Assembly (NCBI GenBank): GCA_050084515.1
Contig: CM114271.1
Span: forward strand, 14,012,001 to 14,076,000
Direction of reading: 5' to 3'
DNA from: Blasia pusilla
Taxonomy: Eukaryota
DNA: 64,000 bases
A program made the position numbers and the translations under genes. The notes beneath the pieces were generated by a model. The model did no database searches, was not told where the DNA came from, and worked only from the letters and a program-made list of their open reading frames with translations. Below, piece after piece: positions 404 through 63,466 of this stretch; positions within the stretch are counted from its first letter, which is position 1, and every line of letters starts with the position of its first letter.

Positions 404-3597
<3,194 letters not shown>

Positions 3598-13739: not shown

Positions 13740-16465
13740 GTGACATGGAGAGGGCTCTGATTCAAAGTAGGAGCCAGGACTTGGTTGGAGCAAGACTAGT
13801 GGAGGTGTCGCATGGAGAGTATGCATCTACCATTGTCATACCCGCCAAGAAGGATGTGCATGGCAGCTGGATGAATAGGCGGATATGTGGAGATAACCGA
13901 CCTATCAATCGGTAGACAAATTCCGATAGGTATGCCATGCCCATCCTTGAGGAGATCTTTGATGCGATTGGGCATGCAAAGGTCTTCAATTCATTGGATT
14001 TGTGAGTCGGATACCATCAAGCGCCTATCAGATTGGAGGGAGGCAAAGACGGCATTTTGGGGCATCCATCCTCACGGGAAGGATTGTTTGTACTAGTGGC
14101 GGTTCTTACCATTCGGGTTAAAGAACGTCCCGGTTGAGTTTGAGAGGGTCATGGATAGGATCTTGGCAGGTCTGGATTTTGCTAGGTGTTATATTCATGA
14201 CATCATAGTCTTGAGCACCACGGTTGAGGAGCATGAGCAACATTTAGAGAAGGTGTTTCGACGATTGCAGTAACATGGGCTGAAGCTACATCCAGGCAAG
14301 TGCAAGTTCTTCTATGACCAGATTGAGTACTTGAGTCATATGATATATCCAAGGGGCCTTGGTGTGCAACATACGAAGGTAGAGGCTATTTCACGCATTC
14401 CACGCCCTACAAATATGAGTCTAGTTTGTGCATTCATGGGATTGGCGAACTTCTATCGATGATACGTCAAGGGTTTCAGTTTGATTGTGAAGCCACGCAC
14501 CTTGATGACCAAGGTGGATCAGGAGTGGCATTGGGAGGGATGAGCAAGAGAGAGCATTAGAGATGCTCAAGGACATACTGACGTCCACGCCCATATTGAG
14601 GAGACCGATCAGGGGGGCATCCTTTCGAGTTGCATACCAATTGGAGCATGTTGGGGCTTGGAGCTATGCTCACCCAGCATGACGATGATGGTAGAGAGTT
14701 CGTGGTGGCTTATGCTAGTCGCTCAAACAACGCTGCAGAGGTGAAGTATAGCTCGTATGAGGTGAGTGCTTGGCTGTAGTGTGGGCTGTCGCACATTTCA
14801 GATCTTATCGATTCGGAAATCCTTTTACCATTATTAATGATCATCAACAACTTAAGTGGTTGATGGAGTCTGACAAGCTTACAGGGAAGCTTGCAAGGTT
14901 GGCTCTTTTGTTGCAAGAGTATGACTTCTACATGGTGCATAGATCTGGGACGCTCAACCCGGATGCAGATGGTTTGAGCCGTAATCCATGCGTGAGTCAG
15001 CAAGATGTGACTAGAGCTCGTTGGCATGGTGAGAGTGATGAGGAGTTGGTGCTAGGATGGCATGCGTCAGCCTATTTGGGCTTATTGGTTATGGAGAGTC
15101 ATATTTCTGAGACTTCGATGGCGAGGTCTGATGGAGAGTCCTTAGATATAGAGGCATGTGAGGAGACGACAAGTAGTCGAGAGATTCACGACGATGGAGT
15201 GCTCTTGGAGTATTTGCGTACTGCCAGCGTCGCGAGCATAATAGGTGTTAGAGTGCGGGATCGGATCCTACAGAGAGCCACTTGGTTCTAGTGGGAGGGC
15301 ACACATGTGTTGCGAGTGTGGAATGATGGTAGAGTGTATGTAGTGCCTCATCCTTTGCAAAGAGCACGTTTGGTGCGTCATACTCATGAGGAGTTGGGTC
15401 ATTTTGGAGTCAAGCGGACGTACAGCTTCCTCCAAATTCAACATTGGTGGCGAGGCATGCAGATTGACGTTCAACAATTTGTTTCCAACTGCATGGTGTG
15501 TGATTGAGTCCGAGCATCGTTCAATGCTCTGACTCCACAGTTGCATCCACTTCCGATCATGGGTTTAGGTTATAGATGGAGTTTGGATTTTGGGAGACCT
15601 TTGCCTTTGACAAAGCGCCATAGTCGTTATGTGTTGGTGATGGTCGAGCACTTCTTGAAGTGGATAGAGTTGGTTGCATTGCCTGACAAAGCGAATGAGG
15701 GAATAGCGTATGCTATCCTAGATTGAGTGCTGAATCATTACGGCGTGCTAGCTAAGGTGTTGACAGACCAGGGTACACAGTTTTGGGGGGAGTTTCAAGC
15801 CTTGTGTGATCAGACACTAATCGACCACCGTACTACTTCGCAAGATCATCCTGAGGCGGATGGACTAGCAGAGCGGATTGTGCATACGGTCAAGAGAGGA
15901 CTACGCAAGTATGGCTTGCAGAAAGGTCACATAGGAGATTGGGACCTTCAGTTTCGGTGGTTGGCAATGGGATACAAATTCAGTAGGCAGGCATCCTTAG
16001 CGTCTTTCTCACCCTATTTGTTGCTTTGTGGCTGAGAGCTAGATTTACCTACGGCCATTCGCCAAGATGTTGGTGAGGTGTTGAACCTTGATGACCCTGA
16101 TGTATGGATGCGAGCATGTTCTCATAGGGATGAGTTGTTTCAGAGAGTGATGCCCATGGCGTTTGAGAACTTGGCGATTGCGCAACATCGAGATACGTTG
16201 AGGTATGCGACTATTAGAGGAGGTGGTTATTGACCTTCTATCCGGAGGTTTCATAAGGGAGACTATTTCTACTTGCGTGCAGACGGTACCCACGACATTG
16301 GATGTGACTGTAGGGTGCACCATCTTGAGAGTGCGTGAGGTTTTGCCATCCGGTGTTCTCTTATTGGAGGGATGCGATTGTATGGTTTGGAAGGACCATG
16401 TGCATAATTGTGCACCATATCATCTTCCAAACATTCACAATGGATGTGTCCCAGATGTACATAGA
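13740..16465 (+). pseudogene. Gypsy-type RT-RNaseH-integrase of copy A; most of the PHD is deleted
   Basis: YIHDIIV (decayed YxDD), DHQQLKWL...LARLALLLQEYDF, HEELGHFG...CMVC, WSLDFG, LTDQG, ADGLAER; ends WMCPRCT*. Confidence 0.9.
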
Positions 16466-28972: not shown

Positions 28973-29995
<1,023 letters not shown>

Positions 29996-43168: not shown

Positions 43169-46100
43169 TGTTACGTCTTTTAGGATAGATCGATGAGATC
43201 TAGTAGAGCGCCTTCGCAAGTAGTGGAGGACAGACTCAAGAGGTCAAGGATGACTTACTAAGGCCCCGAGAAACGTGAGAGACCAGGTTTCCCCTTCGTT
43301 TCTGCTTATTTGGAGCCATATTGAGGAACTTACTATTTTAGGTAAGTACCATTTTGAGTATATGGTCAAATTTCTATTTTTGGTAAGTTTCCCTTGACCT
43401 CCTACATCAGGTCAAGAGCCAAGGAGGTGACTTGGGAGCATAGGTTACCATGGAGAGAGCTTGGGAGAAGGGAGGGGTATACCTCAAGGAGAGAGAGCTT
43501 GAGAGCTCATTCTCTCTTTGTTGAACCTCGAGGTGGCAAAGCTTTTGTCCCTTGCCTTGTGAGTGTAACCCAAGCATCTCATTAGGAGAGTGGGTTTGGT
43601 TTGATATTGAGAGAGACATGTGAGAGTGCATACATGTGAGAACTATGGTATTGTGAGAGAGATTGGATCTTGATTTACAAATAGAGAATGAGATGAGTGA
43701 GAGAGTTTCATGGGGGAGCTCACTGGTCACTCAATGGTTTTGTAGGTTGGGGATCGTATGCCCCGTTCAGCGGTTCATGGGACTGCTCACCGAAGCCGGA
43801 GCCGCTCATTTTTTATGTTTCCTTTGCCGATTTTTTGTGTGGAAGAGTGCTGCATGGAAGCGCTTCCCAATTTTTGATAGGGATTGAGTATGGGGGCGAA
43901 TTTCTCCATGCTGGTGCTCTCGAGAGCACCATGTAGCTTGCTGATTTTTATTTTCATAGGTTTTACATTTTCGTTGGGAGAAATCAGCGCGAAAGCGCTG
44001 CCAAAATTTATGTAGGAGAAAGTGACGTTGGGCTTTACAACAGTCCCCGTCAGTTTTTACAAGAATGTCCGATTCAAAATATTTTTTAACGCCGTCGTAG
44101 ATCATGAAGCTGTGCAGGTCTGCAATAGACATTGCGCAATTTGGAGTTGTGAGCAAAAATTTATGGTCAATCTCGCAAAATTTCCATTGTTGAGCGATTT
44201 TTAGGGTTAAATTGTTCAAACCCTAAACCAGCCGCCGCGCCGGCGGCGGCCATCGCCGTCATAGTCGCAGTCAACGGTTCGCCTTCGACGAAAATTGGCA
44301 CTGTTGACGGTCAACCGTAATAGTCAATGGTCAACCGTCACTATCAACGGTCAATCGTCAATGTCAACGGTCCACCGTCGGCCGCTGCTTCCGCCTAGCG
44401 CTCCTTAGAGCCGCGTTCGTCTGTTGTCCACCCTTGGTTTCCATTGCCACCATTACGGAGTGGAGGGTCTTCCACAACGACCGTTGATTCTCTGACTTGC
44501 ATCGCCGCCACGTACTTTGTTTTGGCCGCCACCGTTATCGCAGTTCGTCATCAACGAGTGATGGTAGGTGAACTCGGGTTATGGCGTTTGAGTTTTTATT
44601 TCATGCTGCTATGTTGTGATTGGTACCCGCTCGATGATGATCGACTACTATGCCGTGACGCCCGTAGCCGCAACGCGCCGCTGATTGCCGCGCCGTGCCG
44701 CTCGTGGCCACACTGCACCGTCTCGATCACGGAGCCGCTCCTTCACTAAGGAGCAAATCGTGTGAATTTCTGATTGAGGAGGGTATGCCGCCGAGTGCCG
44801 CACCCCATTCTCGAGAGCCGTGTCGTGTATAGTCGTTCCGTGCCGCTAGTGCCGCACCGGACCGCTATACTTGCCCTGCACATTGAGGAGGTTTGAGCAA
44901 TGTCAGTACGAGAGGAGTACGACTTGCTGATTGGAGGAGTTGTCTTCACGACCAAGTTGGGGTTGAGATTTGCAATTTCCGAGGAGTGACATCGACATAA
45001 TTTCCAGGTTACCCATTCTGGTTTTATTCCCTGCACGTGTGAGGGATTTTCGGCTATTGGGAAGTTATTTAGGATATTGGGTTTTGTGCTGATGCTAGGA
45101 GCATCGATGATGTATGGGTTTAGGGGACATAGATATGTGTGGGATGTCGAGAGTTGAGGATGGTTTGGCGATGAGACGATAAATCAGTTGATTTGCCGCA
45201 CCACGCTGCTTGTTGCCGCACAACACACGTCTCACTAAGAGAGTGTAGATTGAGTGGCGCATGTTTAGTTTGAGTGATTGAGGGATTATTCGAGAGATTG
45301 GGAGTTATCGTGTAAGAGGAGCATGAGGGGCACGAGGGCCATCACTACGTCCTTTCGAGATTTTGAAAGGCGAGGTAGTGGACCTGAGAGTAGCGCTAGA
45401 GGGTTTACCCGGAGTGGTGCGAGGTTTTGAGGGTCTCCACACGCACGCGAGAGACCACTTCGATCTCAATCTGTGTCGTCTTCTGACAAAGGGGAGCGTG
45501 TAGAGGAGTGTGTTAGTGATCCACCGTACATATTGAGTGGTCCTACCAGTTGGGCGTATGAGATGGACGACCGAGATAGAGGACCGCATAGGTTTTCGGG
45601 TGCTGTAGGCACTATAGTGCTACACGACTTCATTGTAGAGTTTAGGAGTTGGTGTGACTCACAACGGGCTAGGAACTCTAGAGAGTTCAACCCGTTTACA
45701 ACATGGAACAGTATGTTCGAGCATTTAGAGGGGGCGCCCATGGACGATTACCATGAGTTCTCCCATATATATGCCCAGGAGATTGAGGCATGGTGACTCT
45801 ACTATGACCCACACTATGTGTCATGGACGGAGATGTTCCCAGATGAGGAGGAGGAGCCAAGAGAGGCTACTTCCTCTTCCACTAGTGATGTTTTAGGAGG
45901 GGTCACTCGCACTGGAGCTATTGCACCATCTAGTCGGGTTCGTCCCAGATTCAACCCTGTGGTTGAGTTCTTCGCTGAGTTGAGGGCGAGCCACCAGGGT
46001 ACAGACGGAGAAGTTGCGGAGCATCCACGACTTCCAGAGGCGGCCGGGTGAGAGTTTTTGTGAGGCTTACACTTGCTTGCGCCGGTTGATCAACGTCACT

Positions 46101-47604
46101 CAGGGGGTGACAGAGGCTCAAGCTATCCAGTCATGGTACACGATGCTGGACCAGACCCTACGGACACGGGTGCGGGAGGTGGTGCTTCTTATGAATACCT
46201 CCCCTACGTTGAGAGATGTTTTTAGGACCGCCAAGAGCATTGAGCGCAACATGGCGGAGGAGAGCATAGCCACAATGAGTTCTGGGCTAGAGCAATCATG
46301 ATTGTCTGCACCACTTGTGAGCCACGTAGACTCCGAGATAGGTCGACTATGGCACCACGAGCTGAGGGAGGATATCGGGAGCCCGTGCCACAGAGACTTG
46401 CACCTTGATATGCCGCTCAGCATTAGTCGCCTATGATTACTTGTTGGTCATGTGGTGGAGCCCATCATCAATGCGACTGCACTCGTTAGGGTCATGGACG
46501 TGTGCCTCAGCATGGCGGAGGAGATGGTGCTGCATCAGGAGGTTATCAGTGTGACTATTTTCAGAGGTATGGTCACACACGAACCAGGTGTTTCAATTTA
46601 CACCCTGAGTTACGTACGGACCGAGGTCCAGAGAGGGCACCAGAGCGAGTAGCGGTCTGGGTGGGCCTAGAGATCGTGCACAATGTGGTGCCGTTGGGGG
46701 CCGAGGATCTGGAGTTGCCCGACAGGGTGGTGGAGTTGGGTGTGGAGGAGGAAGAGTCCCACCACCTGGACAGGTCAAGGGAGACGTGGGGCGTAAGGTT
46801 GGGATGGCTGCTCAGATACAACAGCTACAGGAGCAGATTGTCGTTATGGCATTGAGGTTACCCGATGCTAGATCCGTGGCATCCACATCATATGGAGCAT
46901 CCAGAGATATGGAGGATCTTGGTTGGATGTGCTGGATTGCCTAGATGGAGGGTGCCGTAGTTGTAACACGTGGAGCAGCCGCGGAGTTGGATCCACAACG
47001 AGGAAAAGCCAGGAAACACACGAGGCTTCCTGAGTCTTTCACGTTGTCCGAGGCAATGAGGACCCCATCAATGGGTCCTGATCTGAGTTCGTGGAAAGTT
47101 GGTGATATTTTTGGTGTGCAAGCACGGAGGGTGATGGGAGAAGGGAGTGCGACGACTCCTATTGCTGATGCTCAGGAGAGGCATGTGTCGAGCACGTTAT
47201 TGGGGGCGGCCACCGTTGTGTACCGCGCTCCTTTATTTTCTGCTTCCAATGTTATGACGTTGGGAGGTACGCCCGCCGAGGTTTTCTGGCTGGCTGTTAT
47301 GCTATGTGAACGTGGAGTTGGAGTTCCTACATCACCTTTAGAGATGATTGGAGAGGAGGTGATCGACCTCCCTTGCAGCGGATGCTCGGGCCGCCCACGT
47401 TAGATTCATGGCAGGCTGCGACTGCTAGAATGACGGAGATGCCGGCTAGACCCGCGATAAAGCGTGCTATGGCTTCTCCTGGTGTTGTGTTGGTGGATAA
47501 CCAAAAATAGGTCTTCCAGTTGGTGAGTCCAAGAGGTAGAGCTTTTAGTCCGCATCGCGTCTTGTTGGATTCAGGAGCGCAACCCTTGATGTTGGGGAAA
47601 GCTT

Positions 47605-48880
47605 TGTCGTATAGTAAAATTAGCCAATGTGTAAACTCCTTCCTCATTAAGTGTTAGATAGAATTTTATTAGAATTAAGTAAATTAGCTAAGAAAAAGGA
47701 AATTCCCATGTTTACACCTCTTTATGATGCCTCTTTTATGCGGGCCTAAATTTAGGAAAAGAGGTAATAAATAAAAGATGACTTTATAAAAGTAAAGTAG
47801 TGAGGTTAGTGATTTAATGAAAAGCAAAGGTAGTCTTGATTGGTAGAGGGTAGTTGGGGTAATTTGGAAAATATAAAGTGGGTAAAAGAGGATATTTTGG
47901 AAGAGATAAGAGGAAATCTACTTATGTTAAAATATGATTGGCTAAGCCTTGAGAGGAAGCCATGTGGCACAAGATAAGATTCGCTCTATTTCGTATTCTT
48001 GTAGATCCCTTGTGAGTATATAAAGAGGAGGGATCTTCAAGGGTTCATCACCTTCTACTTCACATCTTGAGTCTCTCTCGTGTCACTCTTGAGTGTATGG
48101 CTTTGGGATTGCTTGCTCTTCCAATGAGAGTGGATTACCCCTCTTGGGAGAGTAACTTGATCTTGGTCTATTCTTCGAGAGTTTTCTGGAGTGTGGTATG
48201 TGTGGAGATGAGAGACTTGTCACCTTAGATGAGTTTAGTCATACTAGAAATAGAGGATGGTTTGGCTTGTTATTTCTCCAATGAGAGTAGATTACCCTTC
48301 TTGGGAGAGCAACTTTGCCAAATCCCATTCTAGAGGAAAGTAGAGCATGTTTGTCAAGTATGGATAGGGGTGGAGCACGAGTTGTGCCGGATTTTCCTTC
48401 CTTAACCTGTACCACGTCAAGATTCTCTTTATAGATAGGCACTAGTTCACTCGCTATCTAGTTTATCACTTTGGGGACGCGTTCATGAACCAAATCATGC
48501 AATCTCCAACTCTGTTGAGTCTTCCTATAGTCACGTACGGAAGGATATGGGATTGCACTTTGTATGTCCTTATATAGCTATCCATGGATGTCAATAGGCC
48601 TGCTCGAGTAGGATTTAACACTAGTTGTGCTATTTTCCTTGTGTACAAATGTAAAGTAGTTTATAGGGATTTTATAGTTAGGAATTTTGGGGTTTATGTT
48701 ATGAAGAAGTGATTGCCTCGGCACTACCATTCACGATTCCTGTCGTGAAAAAAATGGAGAGTTTACATAATAATGCTGTACTGAAGAAGGAGAAATTCTT
48801 ATAGAGTTTGACTTGCATCAACCACGTCTGCTGCAGCTAGAAGGTTTGCCCTTACTCGAAGAACGATTCTCGACACGACA
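47605..48880. mobile_element. ~1.25 kb TG...CA element, copy 3 (opposite orientation), inside the protease domain of copy D
   Basis: TGTCGTATAG...GACACGACA is the reverse complement of copies 1 and 2; flanks GCTT/ACGT (degenerate TSD). Confidence 0.85.
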
Positions 48881-49555
48881 ACGTCATTGAGAGGATTAGG
48901 GCTGACAAGAGTCGATGTGGAGCGTTGTCCATTCCGGATATAGACATCCTTGGGTGGAGTGAGTACCACATAGTTTATCACCCGATAGGAGGTCGTGGTG
49001 AGGATTCGCCCGGGATTTCCTACAGACGTCCTGAGCGTGGTGCGAGCCAAGGCAATAGTCACTGATGGAGAGTCCTACGATGTCTTGGTTGGTGGAGCAG
49101 TGTTATCAATGATGGGGTTTTCCCTGGATTACTTGAAGGAGTTAGCGTCCTACAAACCAAGATGGCAGTCAGGTGATGGGCGCCTTAGCTCATTACCCGT
49201 TCGATTCACAGGTGCAGTGATCGAGCGACGGCCAAGAGAGATGGTGACCTTAGCAGCATTTATCACTTCGCCTAGTGATTTGATTGAGGGACATGTCCAT
49301 GCAGAGGATAATCCCCTTCCTGATATTTCTTTGGAGAGTAGTGTCATGGTAGCCGCATCAATCCGTGGAGGAGCGGTGCCGCTTTTGGGCTCGACTGAGA
49401 AGCTTCGACGCTTAGGAACTGAGCATATACAGAGTGCGTGGAGCGAGACGTTTGCACCAAAGTGTGACGGGTTAGAGGAAACCCAAGTTGCCAGGAGTGC
49501 TACTATGAACCCTTTGGACACCACCCGGATTGTGTGGTGCATCCCAGGGAAGGGT

Positions 49556-50115
49556 ATTCGGTTGTTGGATCTCTTTGGAGGGATTGGCACTGGGTTAGCT
49601 ACTGTTTTGCAGGGTGGAGTGCGCATGTAGTAGTAGTTGTATATGGAGATTGATGATGTTGCGAGGCGCGCTTCACTTCACCATGTGGCAGAGTTACGCC
49701 TCCGTTTTCCCGACTTGTTGTCTGCATCCGCCATTCAGGGTTACTAGAGTTCCCTACCGAGGGACATTTCATTGTTGGGGGCGCAGGACTTGGAGCGGGT
49801 AGGGACCATAGACTTGGTCATTGCTGGTTGGTCATGTTAGGGCCAATCGAGTGCTGGATGAGGTAGCGGATTAACTTACTCTCGGTCGAGGTTATTTTGG
49901 GAGATGATGCGGATTTTGCGATACTTGCACAAGCATCACTCTCGTTCTGCTGCATATATTTTGGAGAATGTGCGGATTTTGGGCGATTCGAGGTCCTGCG
50001 TGATGACGAGTGCACATCAAATGCACGCATGGATCGTCCCGACAATATTTTTGGATACAACAAGTGTAGGTTCTAGAGCACATCGCCCGCATCATTGGTG
50101 GACCAACTTTGTGCA
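49556..50115 (+). pseudogene. C5 DNA methyltransferase domain of copy D (motifs I-VIII, truncated)
   Basis: GIRLLDLFGGIGTG, MEIDD, IDLVIAGWSC*GQS, YILENV, AHRPHHWWTNF. Confidence 0.88.
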
Positions 50116-51068
50116 TGTTGTGCGCATACACATCGCTACACAATATACATCGTTGTCACCGAACACACACATAAACACACACAATCCCATGCTAGCTCAT
50201 GACATCCAAACAACGAGACAAGAAGTACCAAAATATCTCCAATTAAAATAAGATCCAATCTCTCTCACAACAGCATAGTTCTCACATGTGTGCACTCTCA
50301 CATGTCTCTCTCAATGTCAAACCAAACCCACTCTCCTAATGAGAGGCTTGGGTTACACACACAAGGAAAGCAAGACCATAGCTCCGTCGCCTCATGCCAA
50401 GAGGTTCAAAAAAGAGAGAATGAGCTCTCAAGCTCTCTCTCCTTGAGGTATACCCCTCTCCTCTCCCAAGCTCTCTCCATGGTAACCTATCCTCCCAAGT
50501 CACCTCCTTGGATCTTGACTTGATGTAGGAGGTCAAAGTCCACTTACCAAAAATAGAAATTTGATCATATACTCAAAATGGTACTTATGTAAAATAGTAA
50601 GTTCCTTAATATGGCTCCAAATGAGCCAAAACGAAGGGGAAACATGGTCTCTCAGGTTTCCTGGGGCCTCAGCAGGTCATCCTCGACCTATTGAGCCTGT
50701 CCTCCACAACTCACAAAGGCGCTCTACTAGATCTCACCGATATATCCCTAAAGACATGATAGCAGTCTTGCATATATATATTGCTACACAACATACATCC
50801 GTGTCATCGAACACACACACTAAGACGCATCCCATGCTAACTCATGACATCCAAACAACGAGACAAGAAGTACCAAAATATCTCCAATCACCCCCCTAGC
50901 TGGTGATTAGGTACCTCTAACTCCAGATAGCCGTCTATCCCTACCTACCATGACATACATCTCTAGGACGCTAAGAGCAAGAAGGTGGGGTGGTCATGTG
51001 GCCCCATCATTAGTCGTCTTCTTGTCATTCATATCACAGATACAAGTGGGAATGTAGAACTATCTTTT

Positions 51069-52450
51069 CTATGTACATCTGGGACGCATCCATTTTCCTT
51101 GAGGAACCCTAGTGAGAGGTGGCGTCAAACATGCCATATGCCATCCTCTCGAACTCCTATCATAGACTAGCATAGTGGCTGCACCACGGGCGGAACAACA
51201 CAACATACACCGTAAGCCTGTAGGAACTATTGCTAGGCTCGGATCAACTGTACCTTCAATGTTCACAAGATGACATAGTGCACAGTTACGCACATGGTCC
51301 TTCCAAACCATACCATCGCGTCCCTCCAATAAGAGAACACCGGATGGCAAAACCTCACGCACTCTCAAGATGGTGCGCCTTGTAGTCACATCCAATGTTG
51401 TGGGTGCCGTCTATTGCAAGTAGACATAGTCTCCCTGATGAAACCTCTGGATAGTAGGTTGATCATCACCTACTCAAATAGTCGCATACCTCAACGTATC
51501 CCGATGTTGCGCAATCGCCAAGTTCTCAAACGTCATGGGCATCACTCTCCGAAATAACTTAGTCCTCTGAGAACATGCTCACATCCATACATCAGGGTCA
51601 TCAAGGTTCAACACCTCACCAACATCTCGACGAATAGCCGCAGGCAAATCCGGCTCTCGGCCATAAAGCAATAAGTAGGGTGAGAAAGACGCTAAGGATG
51701 CCTGCCTGCTGAATCTGTATCCCATCGCTAACCACGGCAACTGAAGGTCCCAATCTCCTTGGTGACCTCTCTGCAAGCCATATTTGCGTAGTCCTCTCTT
51801 CAACGTCTGCACAACCCGTTCTGCTAGGCCATCCGCCTCAGGATGATTCGCGAAGTAGTGCGTTGGTCGATCAGCGCCTGATCACACAAGGCCTGAAACT
51901 CCCCGCAGAACTCTATATCCTAGTCTGTCAACACCTCAGCTAGTGCGCCGTAATGACTCAACACTCGATTTAGGAAGGCATACGCTACTCCCTCACTCGC
52001 TTTTTCGGGCAATGCAACCAACTCTATCCACTTCGAGAAGTGCTCGACCATCACCAACACATAACGACTTTGGCACTCCGTCAAAGGCAAAGGTCCTGCA
52101 AAATCCAAACTCCATCTATAACCTAAACCCATGATCAGAAGTGGATGGAACTGTGGAGTCAAAGCATTGAACGATGCTCGAAATCAATCACATACCATAC
52201 ATCTGGCAACAAACTGTTGAACGTCAGTCTGCATGCCTCGCCACCAATACTAAATCTGGAGCAAGCTGTACGTCCGCTTCACTCCAAAATGACCCAACTC
52301 CTCGTGGGCATGACGCACCAAACGTGCTCTCTGCGAAGGATGAGGCACTACACGCACTCTACCATCCTCCCACACTCCCAACACATGTGTGGTCTCCCAC
52401 TAGAACCGTCTGGCTAGCTGGAGGATGCGATCCCGGTCTCTAGCACCCAC
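51069..52450 (-). pseudogene. DDE integrase with C-terminal PHD finger (copy C)
   Basis: HEELGHFG...CMVC, WSLDFAGP, VLTD, ADGLAER, then CMLC...MLVYDRSSRGWHMACLTPPLTRVPQGKWMRPRC. Confidence 0.88.
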
Positions 52451-52546: not shown

Positions 52547-53948
52547 TTAGGACTCTCCATCAGACCTCGCCATCGAAGTCTCAGCAATCTGGATCTCCAT
52601 AGCCAATAAGTCCAAATAGGCTAACATATGCCATCCTGGTACCAACTCCTCCTCACTCTCACCATGCCAACGAGCTCGAGTCGCATCTTGCTCACTCGGG
52701 CACGGGTTACGGTTCCAACCATCTGCATCCTGGTTGAGCATCCCAGGTCTATGCACCACTTGGAAGTCATACTCCTACAACAAAAGAGCCCACCTCGCAA
52801 GCTTCCCTATGAGCTTTTTGGACTCCATCAACCACTTAAGTGGCTGATGATCAGTAATGATGGTAAGGGGATTGCCGAATAGATAACATCCGAAATGTGC
52901 GACAGCCCACACTACAGCCAAGCACTCACCCTCATAGGAGCTATATCTTGCCTCTGTAGCGTTGTTCGAGCGACTAGCATAAGCCACCACGAACTCTCTA
53001 CCATCATCGTCATGCTGGGTGAGCACGACTCCAAGCCCCAACATGCTCTAATCGGTATGCAACTGGAAAGGACGCCCCCTGATCGGTCTCCTCAATATGG
53101 GCCCGGACGTTAATCTCTCTTTGAGCATCTGAAATACTCTCTCTTGCTCATCCCCCCAAGTGCCACTCTTGATACACCTTGGTCATCAAGGTTAGCGGCT
53201 TCGCAATTGAACTGAAACCCTTGACGTATCGTCGATAGAAGTTCGCCAATCCCATGAATGCACAAACTCGACTCACATCTGTAGGGCGTGGAATGCGTGA
53301 GATAGCCTCTACCTTCGTATGTTGCACACCAAGGGCCCCAGGGTATATCGTATGACCCAAGTATTCAATCTGGTCGTAGAAGAACTTGCACTTGCCTGGA
53401 TGTAGCTTCAGCCCATGTAACTGCAATCGTCGAAACACCTCCTCTAAATGTCGCTCATGCTCCTCAACCGTGGCGCTAAAGACTACGATGTCATCAATAT
53501 AACACCTAGCAAAATCCAGACCTGCCAAGATCCTATTTATGACCCTCTGAAACTCATCCGGGGCGTTCTTTAACCTGAATGGTAAGAACCGCCACTCGTA
53601 CAAAAAATCCTTCTCGTGAGGATCGATGCCCCAAAATGCCGTCTTCTGCCTGTCCTCCAATCTGATAGGCAACTGATGGTATCCGACTCGCAAATCCAAT
53701 GAACTGAAGACCTTTGCATGCCCAATTGCATCAAAGATCTCCTTAGGGATGGGCATGGCATACGTATCGAACTTGGTCTGCCGATTGATAGGTTGATAAT
53801 CTCCACACATTCGCTTATCCGCCCAGTTGCCATGCACATCCTTCTTGGCGGGCATGACAGTGGCAGATGCATACTCTCCATGCGACATCTCCACTAGTCC
53901 CACTCCAACCAAGTCTTGGCTCCTACTGTGAATCAGAGCCCTCTCCAT
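52547..53948 (-). pseudogene. Ty3/gypsy-type reverse transcriptase and RNase H (copy C)
   Basis: RMCGDYQPIN, FSSLDLRVGYHQL, KTAF, LPFRLKNAP, YIDDIVVFS, VVAYASRS..YSSYEGECLAVVWAV, TDHQPLKWL. Confidence 0.95.
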
Positions 53949-54469
53949 GTCATTGTACCTGTAGGGTAGTCAGAAGATCAGCATGTCACTCGACAACTCA
54001 ATGCGGATCCCTGGACCCTTCAGCGTACCCAAATCATGCATACTAAATGCAAAACAATTCCTATAACTCCTAAGGAACTGGTGTATCCGACGCCGCTCTC
54101 CTCCTGTCAACTTAGGGCCCACATATGGCTCACAAGAAGTCCTATCGTAGTCTCCATCGTGACTACGATAGGACTCTCCGGCGCGGATGTAGGTGGTTGC
54201 TATGGTGCAACCCCGTCTCGGACAATAGAACTCTCATCTCCATATGGAGTATCTGGAACCACACTTGATGCTGTGGCTATCATCTCTTGGCATACCTGCA
54301 AAACATCCCAAGAAGTCCAAGGTTGTCTCTACCGATCACCCCTGGTGTGTCGATCTCCTCCGATCTCACCCCCAGCCGTTGCCTCAATTGTCTCGGTAGG
54401 CATGGGGCTTACCAACGCAATAGTTGTGATTTGTCGCATCTTCAAACGATGTTGTTCAGCTACCCCTAA

Positions 54470-55414
54470 GGTGAAAATCCATGTCAAGCAGTTCAGGTCC
54501 ATCGCCTGACCCAAGACATGACCTCGTGATGCCTCTGATAGTGATGGTACTACCATCACTTCTATGGGGAATCCCATCATTCGCTCTCGCTTATCGGCGT
54601 TGGGCTCCACCAACCTCTATACTTGGTCATCCCAAACCAAGCCAGGTCCGACCTCCTTGAATGCATAGGAAGCGGGAAAACTCACAAATGTGGGAAAGGC
54701 TGCCCGTGGCCTACCAATCCTTTTGACCACAGTCAACAGTGGTTGATCATCTAGCCTCATTGCCTCTGATCGACGGCCCGGATCCAATATAGAATCCACC
54801 AACAAATTGGAGGGGCGCTCCACTCTCGCATATGCCCTCCGTAACACCTCGTGTGGTACCAAGTTGGTCCACCAAAGATGCGGGCGATATGCTCGTGAAC
54901 CCACACTTACGGCATCTAACAATACTGCCGGGCCAATCCATGCGCGCACCTGATGTGCACTCGTCACCACGCAGGATCTTGAATCGCCCAAAATTGGTAC
55001 ATTCTCCAAAATGTATGTTGGAGAACGAGGGTGATGCTCCTATAAATGTCGCAAGATCCGCATCATCTCCCACAACAACCTGGACCGAGTGTCAGCTAAC
55101 CCGCTACCTCGTCCAGCACTCGATTGGCCCTGACACGGCCAACCATCAATTACCAAGTCTATGGTCCTTACGCGCTCCAAGTCCTGCGCCCCCAACAATG
55201 AAATATCCCTCGGTAGGCAACTCTGGTGACTGTGAATGGCGGACGCAGATAACAAGTCGGGAAAACGGAGGCATAACAACGCCACATGGTGAAGTGAAGC
55301 GTGCCTCGCAACATCATCAATCTCCACATACAAGTACTGCTGCACGCGCACTCTAGCGTGCAAAACAAGAGCTAACCCAGTGCCGATCCCTCCAAGAGAT
55401 CCAACACCCAAATA
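54470..55414 (-). pseudogene. C5 cytosine DNA methyltransferase domain (DNMT3-like) of copy C, with intact catalytic PCQ
   Basis: VLDL/GGIGTG (I, frameshifted), YVEIDD (II), IDLVIDGWPCQGQSSAG (IV), LENV (VI), AYRPHLWWTNL (VIII), EPNADKRERMMGFP (IX), RGHVLGQAMDL (X). Confidence 0.92.
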
Positions 55415-55999
55415 CCCTTCTCTGCGATGCACCACACAATTGGGGCGGTGTCCAAAGGGGTCATAGCAACAGTCGTGCCTACTTGGGGTTCCTATGATCC
55501 GTCACGCTCTTGTGCAAACGTCTTGCTCCATGCGGTTTGCACATGCTTAGGGGCTAAGCGTCAAAGCTCCTCAATCAAGCCCCAAAGCGGCACCTCTCCT
55601 CCACGGACTAATACGGCTACCATGACACTCCTCTGCATAGAAATTTCAGGAACGGGAGTATCCTCTGTATGGACATGTCCCTCAATCAAATCACTAGGCC
55701 AAGTGATGGCACTGCTAAATGCTGCTAAGGTCGCCATCTCTCTTGGCCGTCGCTCGATCACTGCACCTATGAATCGCACAGGTAATGAGCTAAGGCGCCC
55801 ATCACTTGACTGCCATCCTGGTCTATAGGACGCTGACTCCTCCCAATAATCCAAGGAAAACCCCATCGGGTAAAACACTGCTCCACCAACCAAGATGTCG
55901 TAGGACTCTGCATCAGTCACTCCATCAACTGGAAGACATCTCCCCGGTTATCTTGCAACACAACATCACGAGAAACCATGGCACGCTCTATCACCGGTC

Positions 56000-58110
56000 T
56001 AGCGGGCATCTCCGCCATCGTAGCAGCCGCAGCCTGCCATGAATATAACGTGGATGGCCCGAGCATCCGCTCCAAGCGTAGGTACATCACCTCCTCTCAC
56101 CTCAGAACGTGATGTAGGAACTCCAACTCCATGCTCACATAGCGTAGCGGCCAGCCCAAAGACCTCGGCGGGCATACCTCCCAACGTCATAACATCAGAA
56201 GCAAAAAATAAAGGAGCGCGGTACACAACGGTGGACGCCCCCAATAACGTGCTCGACGCATGCCCCTCTTGAGCATCAACAATAGGAGTCATCGCACTCG
56301 ATTCTCCTATCGCCCTCGGTGCTTGGACACCAACAACATCACCAACTCTCCAGGAACTCTGATCAGGACCCATCGATGGGGTCCTCATCGCCTCGGACAA
56401 CGTGAAAGACTAAGGAAGCCTAGTCTGTTTGTTGGCTTCCCCTTGCTGTGGATCCAACTCTGTGGCTGCTCCACACATCACAACTACGGCGGCCTCCACT
56501 TGGGCAACCCCACACATCTAACCAGGATCCTCCATATGTTTGGAAGCTCCATATGATGTCGATGCCACGGATCCGGCATCGGGTAATGCCATAGCGAAAA
56601 TCTGCTCATGTGGTTGATATATCTAAGCAACCATCCTAGCCTCACGCCTGACATCTTCCTCGACGCGTCTAGGTGGTGGGACTCTACTTCCTCCACGGGC
56701 AGCTCCATCACCCTGTCCAAAAACTCCAGCTCCTCGTCCACCAACGGGGCTATCTGGTGCACGATCTCTTGACCCACCTGGACCGGCTACTTGTTGTGCT
56801 GCCCTCTCTGGCCCTCCGTCGGGACGTAACTCAGGATGTAAACTGAAACACCTGGCACGTGTATGAACATACCTTTGACAATAGTCACATTGATAACCTC
56901 CTGGTTCAGCACCATCTCCTCCTCCATGCTGAGGCACACGTCCATGACCCTGAAGGGTGCAATCACGCTGACGATGGGCTCCACCACATGACCAACAAGT
57001 AATCGTAGGCAGCTGCTGCTGAGCCGCATATGAAGGTGCAGGTCTCTGTGGCACGACCTTTCGATATCCTCTGTGAGCTTGTGGTGCCACAGTCAACCTA
57101 TCTCAGAGTCCACGTTGCTGCACAGGTGGTGTAGACAATCGTGACTACTCTCGCCCAGAACCCATGATGGCTACGCTCTCCTCCGCCATGTTGCGCTCAA
57201 TGTTCTTGGCGGTCCTAAAACCATCTCTCAACGTAGGGGAGGTGTTCATAAGAAGCACCCCTCTCGTATCTGTCTCCGCAAGGTCCAGTCCAACATCGCA
57301 TACCATGACTAGATAGCCTAAGCCTCTGTCAACCCCTGAGTGACGTTGATCAACCGGCGCAAGCGAGTGTAAGCCTCACACAAACTCTCATCCGGGTGCC
57401 TCTGGAAGTTGTGGATGCTCCGCAACTTCTCCGTCCATACACCCTGGTAGCTCATCCTCAACTCAACGAAGAACTCAACCACGGGGTTGAATCTGGGACG
57501 AACCCGACTAGATGGTGCAACTGCTCCAATGCGAGTGAACCCTCCTAAAACATCACTAGTGGAAGAGGAAGTAGCCTCTCTTGACTCCTCCTCCTCATCT
57601 GGGAACCGCTCTGTCCATGACACATAGTGTGGGTCATAGTAGAGTCGCCATGCCTCAATCTCCTAAGCATATCTATGGGAGAACTCATGCTAATCGTCCA
57701 TGGGCGCCCCCTCTAAATGCTCAAACATATTATTCCATGTTGTAAACGGGTTGAACTCTCTAGAGTTCCAAGCCCGCTATGAGTCACACCAACTCCTAAA
57801 CTCCGCAATGAAGTCGTGTAGCTCTATAGTGCCTATAGCACCCGAAAACCTATGCGGTCCTCTACCCCGGTCGTCTATCTCGTATGCCCAACTGGTAGGA
57901 CCACTCAATGTGTAGGGTGGATCACTAACATGCTCCTCTAAATGCTCCCCCTGGTCTGAAGACAACAGAGAAGGAGATTGAGGTGGTCTCTCACGTGGAG
58001 ACCCTTGAAACCTCGTACCACTCCGGGTAAACCCTTCATAGCTACTCTCAGGTCCACTACCTCGCCTCTCAAAATCCCGAAAGGGATGCGTGATGGCCCT
58101 CGTGCCCCTC
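56000..58110 (-). pseudogene. Gag-like region with two zinc knuckles (copy C)
   Basis: CWSCGGAHRQRDC and CDYCQRYVHTRARC, plus a retrotransposon-gag-like FQRHPDESLCEAYTRLRRL segment; frameshifted. Confidence 0.75.
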
Positions 58111-58194
58111 TCACAAGATCACTCTCCATCTCACGAGTAACCCCTCAATCACTCAAACTAAACATGCGGCACTCAATTTACACTTTCTCACTGA

Positions 58195-58506
58195 TGTGGA
58201 AAACTGCTAAACAAGCATGACTTGTGGAAAACGGCTCTCACAAACACACACCACTATGGAGAACAAAATTTGCAATGAGAGAATGATTGGAGGCTGGTCC
58301 TCTTCTCAATTATATAGGGTATGTACAAGCAACCCTTACCCTATCCTTAACCATAGTCTTGAGTTAGCCTAATTGTGATTAACTAACCCTAGTTAAGATA
58401 ATCGTGCTTAACTGACTAACCAAGATTAAGCTTCCCTACTTCGTGTGAGTGCCAAATGTAGCAGTTCAGGTGTCTTATGAGCTTGACTGTAACTCAATCT
58501 TCAATA
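58195..58506 (-). repeat. Copia 3' LTR
   Basis: Direct repeat of 63155-63466, about 15 substitutions by manual count. Confidence 0.95.
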
Positions 58507-61500
58507 CTCCCCCTCAAGCTAATATCGATATCTCTAACGCCTAAATCCTTTCTAAACATCTCAAACTTATCTCTAGACAATGCCTTTGTAAACATGTCAG
58601 CAATTTGCTGATCTGTACCTATATACACAAGATCAATTTCTCCTGCAAGCACTTTCTCTCTGATAAAATGATAGTGCACCTCAACATGCTTTGTACAAGC
58701 ATGAAACAGAGGGTTATTAGCAAGCTTGATGCTACTAATATTGTCTCCATATATTACACTAGGTTCTAAGTTACTAACACCAATCTCAACAAGTAATCGA
58801 TGAAGACACACCGCCTCACATGCTGCATTGGTTGCTCTCCTATACTCAGCCTCTGTTGAAGATAAAGCAACTGTAGGTTGCTTCTTTGAAGCCCAACTTA
58901 TAGCTGCACTTCCCAAAGTAAATGAATAACCGGATGTGGAGTGTCGATCAGACACGCTTCTTGCCCAATCAGCATATGTGAATCCCTGTAATTAGAAACT
59001 TGGAGAAGGTTCAAATTGAAGCCCGAATTGAATAGAGAATTTCACATACCGCATAATCCTCCTCACAGCATCAAGGTGAGGTTTTTGAAGTGCTTGCATA
59101 AACTGGCTCACTAGGCCAACAACATAGCTCAAATCTGGTCTGGTTATAGTTAGATAGATCGAACTTCCAACCATGCACATATACATATTAGAATCTGCAA
59201 GCAGCTCTCCTTCATCCACTCTTAACTTCACGCTCTAATCCAACGGTGTAGAGATTGGCTTACAAGCTGTCATACCATATTTTGAAAGCATATGAAGAGC
59301 ATATTGTCATTGTAGTAACCACATGCTCTCTCCAACCTTGATAAACTCAATACCAAGGAAGTACTTGAGTTCTCTCAAGTCCTTCATATCAAATTGTGCT
59401 TGTAACTTAAGCTTGACTTGTTGAACCATTTCTTAAGTACTCCCAGTAATCAAGAGATCATCAACATACAACATAGTGAGAACTGTATGATCTTGTCCTC
59501 TCAAGACATATAACGAGGAGTCAGAATCACATACCCTAAAATCCAACTCTTGTAGGACGTATGTAATCTTGCCATACCAAGCTCTTGGAGCTTGTTTGAG
59601 CCCGTATAGAGCTTTCTTCAACCTGCATACGCGAAATGGAAACTTGGGATGCTCGTATCCATGTGGTTGAGTCATATATACCTCCTCACATAGATCTCCA
59701 TTCAAGAAGACATTCTTGACGTCCATGTGATGTAATCTCCACTTCTTACTTACTGCAACTGCAACCACGATTCTCGTAGTCGCCATCTTTGCAACAGGGC
59801 TAAATTTTTCCTCATAATCGATACCATATTGTTGTGCATAGCCCTTAGCCATCAATCTCGCTTTGTATCTGTTAATTGTACCATCTTGATTGCGCTTGAT
59901 TTTGTAAACTCATTTGCAACCAATAGCTTCCTTACCGGAAGGTATATCAACCAGCTCCCATGTTTATTGATGTCTTAATGCACCAAGCTCTTCCTCCATA
60001 GCTTCAATCCATTCGGCTTTACTCGCAGCTTCTTCAAAACAACTCGGCTCCTGCTCTTGAAGGTTAGTCATCATATATGCATGATGTGTCGTAAGGAAAC
60101 CTTCATTTATGAATCTATGAACTGGATGTGTAACTCTACTTCATCTACGAAGTTGTTGTTCAGAGGTAGATGTCTCTGACACCTGACTCGAGCTCTGACT
60201 AGTGTTAACAGACTGAATATGTACTCTTCCCGTCCATGGACTCACAGATTTAATGGATGAATCTAGAACCTCTCCTAATCCTACACTAGTACTTGGGGAA
60301 GTTGAAGACAATGTCTGTTGGTTTTTAGTCATATTCTCCCCCTCAAAAGACAAGTTTAGAGGTGGAATAGGCTCAGATGGAGCATACCATGACTTTAGCT
60401 CATCAAAGACAACATCCCGACTAATAATAATCTGCCTAGAGGATGGAATATAGCACTTATATCCCTTAGTTCCATCAGCATATCCAATGAAGATATATCT
60501 TTCAGACTTGGGGTCTAATTTCTGACGTCTCTCAGAAGGAATATGAGCATAATAGATACAGCCAAATACTTTCAAGAAGGAAAAATCAGGTTTACTTCCT
60601 GTGAAGACTTCGAATGGAGTTTTATCATGAACTCTTGCTGTTGGAGTTTGGTTGATTAAGAAGACTGCACATGCTATAGCCTTTGCCCAATACACCTTAG
60701 GCATGTTCTTCTCATTCAACATAGCTCGTGCCGCTTCAGTTATATGTCGATTTTTCCTCTCAGCCACTCCATTTTGTTGTGGAGTATAGCGGAAAGTCAC
60801 TTGACGTTGGATAATATTTTGACGTAAATAGTCATCAAACTCTGTTGAAAGATACTCTCCTCCTCCATCACAACGCAATTTCACAATGTGTTGTCCACTC
60901 TGCTTCTCTATTAGAACTCTGAATGTTTGGAACACTGAGAATCCCTCTGACTTGGCTTTCAAAAAATATACCCATATATACCTAGAGAAGTCATCAATAA
61001 ATGAAACAAAGTACTGGCAACCACTAAGGCTCTATTGTGATGCTGTCCACAGATCACTGTGGATCAACTCCAATATCTTGGATGCTCTTCTACCTTGCTT
61101 TGGAAAAGGAAATCTAGCTTGTTTTCCAAATTGGCAAGCATGACATACCTCTAACATAGCAGGACTCGCTAATTTAGGGAGTCCTATTACTATATTAGAT
61201 GATGAAAGACTCTGTAATCTTTGAAGATTCATATGTCCAATTTTTTTATGCCACACATTTAGATCTGTGACTTGTTGGTCGGTTTGACCATACATTGATG
61301 TTTGAATCTCTGGCATAGAAACATCTAATTTGAATATTCTGCCAGATCTAGTTCCTTTGGCTATCGTAGTCTGGTCATCCATTGTTTCAATGAAACAACC
61401 ATTTGCGTTAAACTTCACTTGATAACCCTGTTCTACTATTTGTCCTACAGAGATAAGATTTCTTGCGATGGTAGGAACATAGAGAACATTTCCAAGAGCA

Positions 61501-62693
61501 CAAAGACCATCTAATGTTATTGGAACTTTACTGGTATGCGTGCTATGATGTTGAGTGTCATCTCCTGTGAGCACAATTGCAGGATCTTTCACCGGCTCTA
61601 AACTATTGAACCATTTCGCTTGTGAGGTCATGTGATTTGATGCACCGGAGTCAATGTACCAATCTCTTATCGAGTCTTTCTTAACCATTGCTCCTATATG
61701 ATGAGTCATGACCAAGAGATGCTCCGTTTGTGAATGTTGCTGTTCTTGGTACTGCTCTTGGTGTTGTTGCTCCACATAGTTTTGTTGTTGTAAGGCTCCT
61801 ATTCTCATATCTGCCTTCTTCTTGAAGCAAAACTTTGCATAGTGACCCTTTATTCCACAGTAATTGCAAGATCCAGAGACTCTCTACTGTTGACCTCAAC
61901 ACCAACGATTTCCACCATCACCACCACGTGATTGTGTTTGGTACTGATTCGTAGTTGATTGAGTGACATTATATTGAGTGCCTCTTCCTCCATATGCTTG
62001 ATATCCACCACGATCACGGAAGTTTCTGCCACGATCCCTGCCTTTTTTTGATCCATAACCTGCAAATAACGCACTCTCTTGCAGACTAGACGAGCTTCTG
62101 CTACCTACTAGGCGCATCTCTTTATTGATCAACACACGAACTAACTCTTGAAAGGTTGGATACTTCTCTCTCACAGAGAAAGAGGTCTCAAAGGACTTGT
62201 AATCTTTTGGAAGGCCTTGAAGAGTGAATAAGATCAGATCATCATCTTCTACTGTCACTCCAATACTATTCAACTAATCAACAATATGTCTGATACTCAA
62301 AATATAATCATTGATGCTCTGCAATCCTTTCCTCACTTCGTTCAAGTGCTGTTTTGATTGAAGCTTTTTGGCCTTTGTCGATGTCTGGAACAACTTTTCC
62401 AATGCATCCGAGGCCTCCTTTGGAGAATCAACATCTTGGATGTGACCTATCATTGGCGAACTAATCGTTATTGAAATGTAGTGGATTACTTGCCTTGTGC
62501 TTTTGTTCCAAGCGCGAACATTCAAGTCTGTTGAGTCACCTTCTGGCTTGGCCTCATCACCTGTGACAAGCTCCCATAGTTCTTGACCCATAAGAAATTC
62601 TTTCATGCAAAACTTCCAGACATTGTAATTTTGCTTGTTTAGCTTCTCGTCTGTGATTGCTGCTGAGGAATACTCCATGATAAACAATTTCAC
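58494..62693 (-). pseudogene. Copia gag-pol polyprotein with stops and frameshifts
   Basis: ORF pieces: LNKQNYNVWK, LRCDGGGEY, TPQQNGVAERKNR, HMDVKNVFLNG, LKKALYGLKQAPRAWY, ALSSTEAEY, KHVEVHYHFIRE. Confidence 0.95.
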
Positions 62694-63154
62694 TCACAAA
62701 AAATGTAATTTCAGGTTTTCTACTATTCCAATTGAAGCATAGACCACTCCTACATAGAAATTGACCTGAAATTTTCCAAAATTGATCAACTGTATGAAAG
62801 AACTAGTCGAAATTGGCTTGTAGAGAGCAAACTACACAACTTTTCTTCACTAATTGCACTTTCCTACATTGAAATTGCTGCTGCAGGAGCTCAGAGTGTC
62901 AAAATTGAGAGATTTTGGATGCGTTGGAAATCTCTCGATGAGCTCTACAAGATGGATAGAACAAGCTAGATCCGTCTTGATAGAACAAGCCTTCGGCTTG
63001 TTCTATCATCATCAAAGCTCCACTTGAAATTTGCATCCACTAAGCTCTGAATAAAATTTCCTTCTCCCAAACTGAAATTGTGCCTTCTCTTGCCTCTCTT
63101 CTCTCTTCAAACACTAAGAATTTCAAGTGATGTTCTCCTCCTGCTCTGATACCA

Positions 63155-63466
63155 TGTGGAAAACTGCTAAACAAGCAGAACTGGTGGAAAACGGCTCTCA
63201 CAAATACACACCACCATGGAGAACGAAATTTGCAATGAGAGAATGATTGGAGGCTAGTACTCTTCTTAATTATATAGGGTATGTACAAGCAACCCTAATC
63301 CTATCCTTAACCATAGTCTTGAGTTAGCCTTACTATGATTAACTAACCCTAGTTAAGATAATCGTGCTTAACTGACTAACCAAGATTAAGCTTCCCTACT
63401 TCGTGTGAGTGCCAAATGTAGCAGTTCAGGTGTCTCATGAGCTTGACTGTAACTCAATCTTCAATA
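63155..63466 (-). repeat. Copia 5' LTR
   Basis: Followed on the minus strand by the tRNA-iMet PBS TGGTATCAGAGC. Confidence 0.95.

What the first reader, a model, noticed from the sequence alone, without database searches (positions are those of the whole stretch)
51069..51212. PHD finger at the integrase C-terminus: a chromatin reader paired with the DNMT writer
Seen: CMLC-x8-MLVYDRSSRGWHMACLTPPLTRVPQGKWMRPRC fits the PHD pattern (C-C...CD.C..GWH..CL.PPL..VP.G.W.CP.C) with three Cys positions mutated. Copy A keeps WMCPRC at ~16441-16458, which restores one of them. Known: chromoviruses carry a chromodomain at this position for targeting, PHDs read the H3 tail, and animal DNMT3 uses a PHD-like ADD domain. 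Inference: the PHD targets integration, and perhaps methylation, to particular chromatin.
Basis: partly seen in the sequence, partly recalled or inferred. Interest (0 to 1): 0.7.

Follow-up and report, generated by a model that had tools for sequence, protein, structure and literature searches.

The report
PHD finger on retrotransposon integrase
A dead copy of an abundant plant jumping gene ends its integrase in a real PHD zinc finger that probably docks it on chromatin; the DNA-methylating enzyme of the same element lies behind a conserved stop codon, so the two are neighbours rather than one reader-writer enzyme.

Summary
The PHD finger is real: minus strand 51072-51212, 5 of 8 zinc ligands left, in the frame of the integrase tail. 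Of 30 sister copies chosen by integrase alone, 29 carry it; intact copies pass Pfam's cut-off in one frame with the integrase core. The element is a high-copy Gypsy-order retrotransposon (gag-protease-DNMT3-like | RT-RNaseH-integrase-PHD) with split direct repeats and 4-bp target duplications, of the KnitGypsy-Dnmt3 kind; a PHD in a Gypsy polyprotein, with the targeting idea, is already in print for Chlamydomonas Gypsy-7a. PHD and DNMT do travel together (DNMT in 99 of 120 integrase-PHD relatives), but the ADD-like pairing is not supported. An in-frame stop lies between them in 1862 of 1937 genomic matches, in a read-through-type context kept in divergent relatives. The PHD also survives where the DNMT is dead or absent. 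The finger keeps the H3 Ala1 and Arg2 contacts of KDM5B PHD1 but lacks its Lys4 and Thr3 contacts. Best reading: a weak nucleosome tether for integrase. Binding and targeting are inferred, not shown.

The parts
51072..51212 (-). PHD finger, last domain of the pol frame; 5 of 8 zinc ligands left in this copy
51069..51071 (-). stop codon ending the pol frame right after the finger, at the same place in most sister copies
51225..52333 (-). integrase (H2C2 zinc domain 52175-52333, core 51848-52120, tail 51225-51839); broken here by a frameshift and stops
   Evidence: domains named on sister copy L031
52769..54131 (-). RNase H (52769-53158) and reverse transcriptase (53433-54131)
54194..54202 (-). 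family-wide in-frame stop TAG followed by CAACCA, between DNMT and RT; candidate read-through signal
   Evidence: the CARYYA read-through motif is recalled, not from a call
54434..55420 (-). DNMT3-like C5 cytosine methyltransferase domain, unpermuted motif order; frameshifted in this copy
55441..58112 (-). gag and protease region; about 250 bases of the protease region are missing at 55921-55923
   Evidence: protease Pfam hit only on relatives P0013, P0127, P0134
50889..50897 (-). polypurine tract in front of repeat B1
50764..50888 (-). repeat B1
50244..50761 (-). repeat A2, two bases after B1; its partner A1 lies beyond the window, near window-equivalent 65326
50116..50243 (-). repeat B2, 3' end of the element; inserted inside the DNMT of another copy of the same family
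58194..63466 (-). a Copia-order element (LTRs 58194-58506 and 63154-63466) inserted upstream of gag; not part of the family
16441..16464 (+). copy A: remnant of the finger (WMCPRCT, stop) after a deletion of about 163 bases

Best explanation
The finger is the normal C-terminal domain of the integrase of a green-lineage Gypsy-order retrotransposon. SHOWN: fold type by sequence, frame, conservation, family anatomy. INFERRED: after the polyprotein is cut up, the integrase-PHD tethers the integration complex to nucleosomes through the free N-terminus of histone H3 (Ala1, Arg2). In this sub-lineage it does so weakly and with little reading of Lys4 methylation, helped by a net positive surface. It serves integration, not the methyltransferase. 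The DNMT ends ORF1 (gag-protease-DNMT) and would be made in excess; RT-RNaseH-integrase-PHD would be made only when the stop is read through. The copy in the window is dead and its missing ligands are decay after insertion.
For: One open frame holds integrase core and PHD in natural copies, e.g. L032 (584 aa) and L039, PF00628 E about 1e-11. 119 of the 120 listed relatives carry PF00628 (the query included the finger, so biased); 20 of 21 metagenome loci chosen by the DNMT, with room after the integrase, have it (few independent families). Between-family dN/dS of the finger 0.14-0.39, dS near saturation. Nearest solved structures are KDM5 PHD1, CHD4, PHF12, DPF, BHC80, AIRE. Positions matching KDM5B L325, D328, P347, G349, W351 are kept; D308, Y310, E321 are not (mapped on PMC4225485); the Asp after ligand 3 is kept in 114 of 119 relatives. 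Stop at the DNMT/RT joint in 1862 of 1937 matches. Finger intact where the DNMT lacks catalytic Cys and Glu (4 of 88) or is not found (P0042, P0069). Ligand 3 loss recurs (14 changes for 26 rows, shuffled mean 18.2) at a CTG site.
Against: No binding or insertion data. The first 100 of 769 matches on contig 1 are spread evenly at 5-Mb scale (chi-square p 0.12 on nine bins), and target duplications show no motif, so no targeting is visible. Loss of the acidic loop (0 of 10 nearest relatives have two or more acids, against 97 of 109 distant ones) could mean H3 is no longer the ligand. DNMT and PHD co-occur more often than independence would need (99 of 120). Two DNMT-bearing relatives lack a recognisable PHD (P0134, P0131), so the finger is not essential to every element. 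Ligand 3 loss is slightly clustered (18 of 500 shuffles as low), so some spread of broken copies is not excluded.
Confidence: 0.5

Rival explanations
1. Selective targeting: the finger reads unmethylated H3K4 and steers insertions away from promoters into silent chromatin, as chromodomains do for chromoviruses.
For: Closest structures are readers of unmodified H3K4 (KDM5B from PMC4225485, the others partly recalled). Distant relatives keep the acidic loop (66 of 109 have Asp/Glu at the E321 position). Gypsy-7a_cRei inserts between genes 2.6 times more than chance (PMC9940879). The window copy sits inside another copy.
Against: This family lacks the D308, Y310 and E321 equivalents that read Lys4 and Thr3. 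Copies are dispersed. Nesting and gene avoidance also follow from selection.
Confidence: 0.17
2. Reader-writer coupling: the PHD brings or activates the element's DNMT at chosen chromatin, for example inside the pre-integration complex, so that new copies or their flanks are methylated.
For: DNMT in 99 of 120 integrase-PHD relatives, catalytic Cys and Glu kept in 84 of 88. In 93 of 124 tree rows the DNMT lies between RNase H and integrase, next to the integrase-PHD in one frame. Some relatives with the DNMT upstream have no stop (8 of 42 same-frame loci; P0013).
Against: Not an ADD domain. In this family the two lie in separate ORFs. Each is kept without the other. The isolated KnitGypsy DNMT showed no activity in yeast, a result its authors call inconclusive (PMC5890265).
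Confidence: 0.13
3. Non-histone role: in this sub-lineage the finger, now net basic, binds DNA or a host protein, or stabilises the integrase multimer.
For: Net charge +4 in copy L039; median +1.5 in the ten nearest relatives against -4 in the 109 distant ones.
Against: The Ala1 pocket and Arg2-binding Asp are still kept, which a pure DNA binder would not need.
Confidence: 0.2

Closest known systems
KnitGypsy-Dnmt3 of Klebsormidium nitens (de Mendoza et al. 2018, PMC5890265; passages, one part of the main text and a term search of 3 supplement files read; figures not held)
   Same: Gypsy domain set, unpermuted Dnmt3-like DNMT inside the element, DIRS-type repeat layout, purifying selection on the DNMT.
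   Different: The text and supplements I could search do not name a PHD (Fig. 4c might show one). It places the DNMT in the Pol ORF; here it ends ORF1 before a conserved stop. Direct sequence comparison was not possible.
Gypsy-7a_cRei of Chlamydomonas reinhardtii (Craig et al., PMC9940879; passages read)
   Same: PHD finger in a Gypsy Gag-Pol, suggested to steer insertion.
   Different: No DNMT is listed for it; it is active and 15.4 kb. Whether it is the element of my relative CHLRE_09g398141 (dead DNMT-like domain plus PHD) was not tested.
Chromoviruses (Neumann et al. 2019, PMC6317226; passages read)
   Same: A chromatin-reader domain at the integrase C-terminus.
   Different: PHD in place of a chromodomain; split repeats in place of ordinary LTRs.
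KDM5B PHD1 and related readers of the unmodified H3 tail (PMC4225485; passages read)
   Same: Gap-free alignment, E 2.7e-14; Ala1 pocket and Arg2-binding Asp kept.
   Different: Lys4 and Thr3 contacts missing; net charge positive.
EpiLTRs (bioRxiv 10.64898/2026.05.21.726589; passages read)
   Different: They carry a chromodomain, an adenine methylase and a DNMT4-related enzyme, and the paper sets them apart from Gypsy-DNMT3.

Membership tests
PHD finger (PF00628) | C4HC3 ligands with PHD spacing and the Trp two before ligand 7 | tested here: met
   15 of 29 sister fingers have all eight ligands and no stop, Trp 29 of 29; 49 bits against cut-off 24 for a natural copy; window copy 5 of 8, 23 bits
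PHD finger (PF00628) | folded two-zinc structure | tested here: inconclusive
   single-sequence AlphaFold2 model, pLDDT 46; only sequence matches to solved PHDs
Readers of unmodified H3K4 (KDM5B PHD1 type) | Ala1 pocket (L325, P347, G349, W351) and Arg2-binding D328 | tested here: met
   against PMC4225485
Readers of unmodified H3K4 (KDM5B PHD1 type) | Lys4 and Thr3 contacts (D308, Y310, E321) | tested here: not met
   Ala, Leu, Ala at these places
Readers of unmodified H3K4 (KDM5B PHD1 type) | measured H3 binding | not testable with these tools
   needs an assay
ADD domain of DNMT3 | ADD family match, adjacent to the catalytic domain in one chain | tested here: not met
   no ADD family among 8 Pfam hits at E up to 0.1; not among the best 60 of 149 PDB matches shown; 3.2 kb and a stop away from the DNMT
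KnitGypsy-Dnmt3 / streptophyte Gypsy-DNMT3 | Gypsy order RT-RNaseH-integrase | tested here: met
KnitGypsy-Dnmt3 / streptophyte Gypsy-DNMT3 | intronless, unpermuted Dnmt3-like domain with catalytic motifs | tested here: met
   best PDB hits DNMT3A, E 4e-13; motifs I, IV, VI, VIII, X in order
KnitGypsy-Dnmt3 / streptophyte Gypsy-DNMT3 | DIRS-type repeat structure | tested here: met
   A1...B1-A2-B2 in L033 and in paired loci
KnitGypsy-Dnmt3 / streptophyte Gypsy-DNMT3 | DNMT inside the Pol ORF | tested here: not met
   same frame, but a stop separates it from RT in 1862 of 1937 matches; fused without a stop in more distant relatives
KnitGypsy-Dnmt3 / streptophyte Gypsy-DNMT3 | one clade with the Klebsormidium sequences | not testable with these tools
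   no named Klebsormidium sequence came up or 53
Chromovirus | chromodomain after the integrase | tested here: not met
   no Chromo family in L031/L032 frames, in the precomputed domains of 120 relatives or in 12 rescanned relatives
Chromovirus | placement by RT-RH-INT tree against reference clades | not tested
DIRS / Ngaro | tyrosine recombinase, no target duplication | tested here: not met
   DDE integrase; exact 4-bp duplications in 13 of 16 elements with both ends
Phygy | NCGN target preference (PMC6317226) | tested here: not met
   at most 1 of 14 readable duplications fits
Troyka | 3-bp duplications, CG..CG ends, animal hosts (PMC12440569) | tested here: not met
   4-bp duplications, TG..CA ends

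The most novel reading that the evidence does not exclude
A self-marking retrotransposon: read-through sets a large excess of DNMT3-like enzyme over integrase-PHD, the enzyme is packed with Gag and methylates the new cDNA, and the integrase opens a palindromic junction of a circular intermediate while its PHD docks on H3 tails, so that new copies arrive already methylated in chosen chromatin. The DNMT moved within the polyprotein, and the finger's charge flipped, as the lineage passed from algae to land plants.
Probability: 0.12. Interest if true: 0.75.

Novelty: new variant of a known kind. Interest (0 to 1): 0.38.

Why it matters
The finger itself is a known kind of add-on. What adds value is the layout around it: a widespread green-lineage clade that keeps a DNMT3-like domain and an integrase PHD together, in two arrangements, with a conserved read-through-type stop in the sub-lineage of this family. 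That gives natural comparisons (live or dead DNMT, acidic or basic finger, fused or split frame) for the open question of what retrotransposon-borne methyltransferases and readers do. The family also makes up thousands of loci in this genome and appears to be transcribed.

Tried and rejected
Troyka, Phygy, DIRS and chromovirus membership: rejected on ends, target duplications and domains (see membership test). Idea that the PHD is pan-lineage but the DNMT rare: came from Pfam labels (25 of 120) and fell when a profile of the element's own DNMT found 99 of 120. Idea that the stop is a decay hot spot: a known hot spot in the finger reaches about 25 of 100, the stop 96 of 100. Idea that one sub-family spread with ligand 3 broken: mostly rejected (9 of 63 rows dropped for short homology). 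The 30 loci picked by the window's own finger are biased towards its changes (27 of 31 hits share Tyr) and were not used for ligand counts. Within-family dN/dS (0.18) is discounted, since those copies were chosen for long frames. Single-sequence structure prediction gave no usable model. Complex prediction with the H3 tail was not available. No RNA holder was listed on record in the run search. A genome-wide count of elements starting with B-A instead of A was not obtained; none of the 16 A repeats followed by the 5' leader in fetched loci has B before it. The REM1 paper and one KDM5A paper were not held.

Full report
OBSERVATION. Bases 51069-51212 read on the minus strand give the quoted peptide and a stop. 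It matches PF00628 end to end, E 8.4e-5, one bit under the cut-off. Five zinc ligands and the core Trp are present; ligands 3, 4 and 7 are changed. The finger lies in the frame of the integrase tail; this copy is broken by three stops and a frameshift upstream. Copy A keeps WMCPRC at 16441-16458 but has lost the rest of the finger.

IT IS A FAMILY TRAIT. The window's genome (390 Mb, 26 contigs) gave the tool's maximum of 150 scored matches for the finger and for the integrase core. Among the 30 loci fetched by the integrase core, 29 have the finger at the expected place; ligands are kept in 28, 29, 23, 28, 29, 29, 25 and 27 of 29, and 15 have all eight without a stop. Natural frames of 307-786 residues join integrase core and PHD. 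The commonest loss, at ligand 3, recurs across the tree of copies at a CTG site where methyl-cytosine decay is expected (the decay chemistry is general knowledge); 75 of the first 100 of 769 matches keep Cys (counted from the listing). Between families the finger shows dN/dS 0.14-0.39 with dS near saturation.

THE ELEMENT. Order: gag, protease, DNMT3-like domain, RT, RNase H, integrase, PHD. It has no ordinary LTRs but split direct repeats, A1...B1-A2-B2, with TG..CA ends. Of 24 elements examined, 16 had both ends; 13 have exact 4-bp target duplications, one a near match, two none. A1 and A2 differ at 5-52 of about 514 bases in 12 pairs: old to fairly recent copies. A 19-base pattern counts 1937 loci, a lower bound. 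Three RNA runs of one study put 5316-5593 reads each on copy L031, along its whole length and mostly in the direction expected for sense RNA; most reads are 90-95% alike, so this is family-level transcription, and the runs are tied to the sequence only by a species label. Named relatives of ORF1 are from Marchantia and Sphagnum, so the host is probably a bryophyte (inference).

DO PHD AND DNMT BELONG TOGETHER? They co-occur. Of 120 listed integrase-PHD relatives (142 found), a DNMT profile finds the domain in 99; most of the rest begin at RT or are partial. Of 80 metagenome loci chosen by the DNMT, 21 have room after the integrase and 20 show the finger (these come from a few families). Named relatives include Chlamydomonas, Pleodorina, Tetrabaena, Haematococcus and Cymbomonas. 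There are two layouts: DNMT between RNase H and integrase (93 of 124 rows) or before RT. The split is one branch in the DNMT tree (support 98; 60 rows, of them 41 picked by hand from the internal type; quick method) and nearly so in the integrase tree (a 22-row group at 91). Without an outgroup, one capture plus a move cannot be told from two captures.

But they are not one module. In this family a stop codon lies between DNMT and RT, in frame: TAG or TAA in 1862 of 1937 matches, followed by CAACCA. Divergent relatives keep the stop with CAGTTA, CAATCA or CAACCC; 8 of 42 same-frame loci, from a more distant family, have no stop. Database proteins fit: near relatives come as RT-to-PHD products of 1033-1171 residues and as gag-to-DNMT products of about 1230-1335. 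The context matches the CARYYA read-through signal (recalled; not tested). Four relatives have lost the DNMT's catalytic Cys and Glu but keep a full finger; P0042 and P0069 run from protease to PHD with no DNMT found; P0134 has the DNMT and no finger. The finger is no ADD domain. Gypsy polyproteins are cut into separate proteins (PMC6317226), so even in fused forms the two need not stay on one chain.

WHAT THE FINGER MAY BIND. Its best solved matches are CHD4, PHF12, KDM5 PHD1, MOZ/DPF, BHC80 and AIRE. On the gap-free alignment to KDM5B PHD1 it keeps the residues that hold H3 Ala1 and Arg2, whose loss abolishes or cuts binding 30-fold, and lacks those for Lys4 and Thr3, each worth 5-10-fold (PMC4225485). 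The acidic loop is missing in all ten nearest relatives and present in 97 of 109 distant ones. This predicts weak, mark-tolerant docking here and sharper reading in algal relatives. No structure of a complex could be computed, and the single-chain model was unusable. Insertions look dispersed and show no target motif; old insertions are filtered by selection, so this neither shows nor excludes targeting.

WHAT IS KNOWN. A Gypsy element with a Dnmt3 domain and DIRS-type repeats is described from Klebsormidium (PMC5890265). A PHD in a Gypsy polyprotein with a targeting role is proposed for Chlamydomonas (PMC9940879). PHD fingers are called widespread in retrotransposons (PMC6673714; PMC8557442; bioRxiv 2021.11.30.470311; passages only). 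Reader-plus-methylase elements are described as EpiLTRs. Ten searches found no text on the PHD-DNMT3 combination in Gypsy, on land-plant members or on the stop. The library lacks most subscription papers, figures and bioRxiv supplements, and Fig. 4c of PMC5890265 may already show the finger. Earlier notes of this scan reach the same filing in other genomes; they are not independent support.

VERDICT. Observation confirmed; interpretation half right. A real integrase PHD, probably a chromatin tether (0.5 weak tether, 0.17 selective), with little support for ADD-like control of the DNMT (0.13). Known kind of element; the read-through-type split and the charge-flipped finger make it a variant worth noting. 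Interest 0.38.

Noticed in passing
window 54194-54202 (-); L136, L137, L141: Stop followed by CAR-YY at the DNMT/RT joint in 18 of 21 single-stop metagenome loci, exactly TAG CAG TTA or TAG CAA TCA in the most divergent ones. Looks like tobamovirus-type read-through (motif recalled). Two paper searches found nothing on it.
   Followed up: partly
window 50755-50770 (-) and sister loci: The B1/A2 joint reads GACA, two bases, TGTC; the two bases are AC 16, AT 7, GC 4, GT 4, other 4, as expected from decay of a palindrome with GC in the middle. A staggered cut there would give retrovirus-like ends from a circle. Also seen in distant families (L100, L134, L151, L159).
   Followed up: partly
L005, L028, L051, L056: Short forms that end at B1 have exact 4-bp target duplications (4 of 4 with both ends found, 7 tried): one-repeat circles or B1-B2 recombination.
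   Followed up: partly
P0036 (CHLRE_09g398141), P0019, P0021, P0066: Volvocine-type relatives carry a DNMT-like domain between RNase H and integrase that has lost the catalytic Cys and Glu and is missed by Pfam.
   Followed up: partly
P0122-P0125, P0133: Marchantia polymorpha gene models Mp4g09160, Mp8g17980, Mp6g11220, MARPO_0084s0073 and a Sphagnum fallax model match this element's ORF1 DNMT at 45-67%; the four Marchantia names were in no paper searched.
   Followed up: partly
L031 8983 to 2220 (-): A GT-AG-type joint from the 5' leader into the integrase core in 8 reads over three RNA runs; it would give an RNA holding the integrase tail and PHD only. Weak.
   Followed up: no
P0049, P0067, P0092: Weak hits after the PHD in algal-type relatives: adenine methylase D12 (E 0.003) and Tudor-like domains (E 0.03, 0.001), all under cut-off.
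   Followed up: no
window 10758-26449, 43169-50114: At least four more nested, broken copies of the same family.
   Followed up: partly
window 317-1405 (-): A 362-residue open frame matching alanyl-tRNA synthetase (E 2e-77).
   Followed up: no
window 4828-5427 (-): Pif1 helicase fragment, possibly a Helitron.
   Followed up: no
window 33829-34374 (+): Exon-like frame with Methyltransf_FA and BTB domains, probably a host gene.
   Followed up: no
window 28044-28366 and 29575-29879: Tandem arrays with units of about 40 and 80 bases; parts of 29816-29998 region match repeat B.
   Followed up: no
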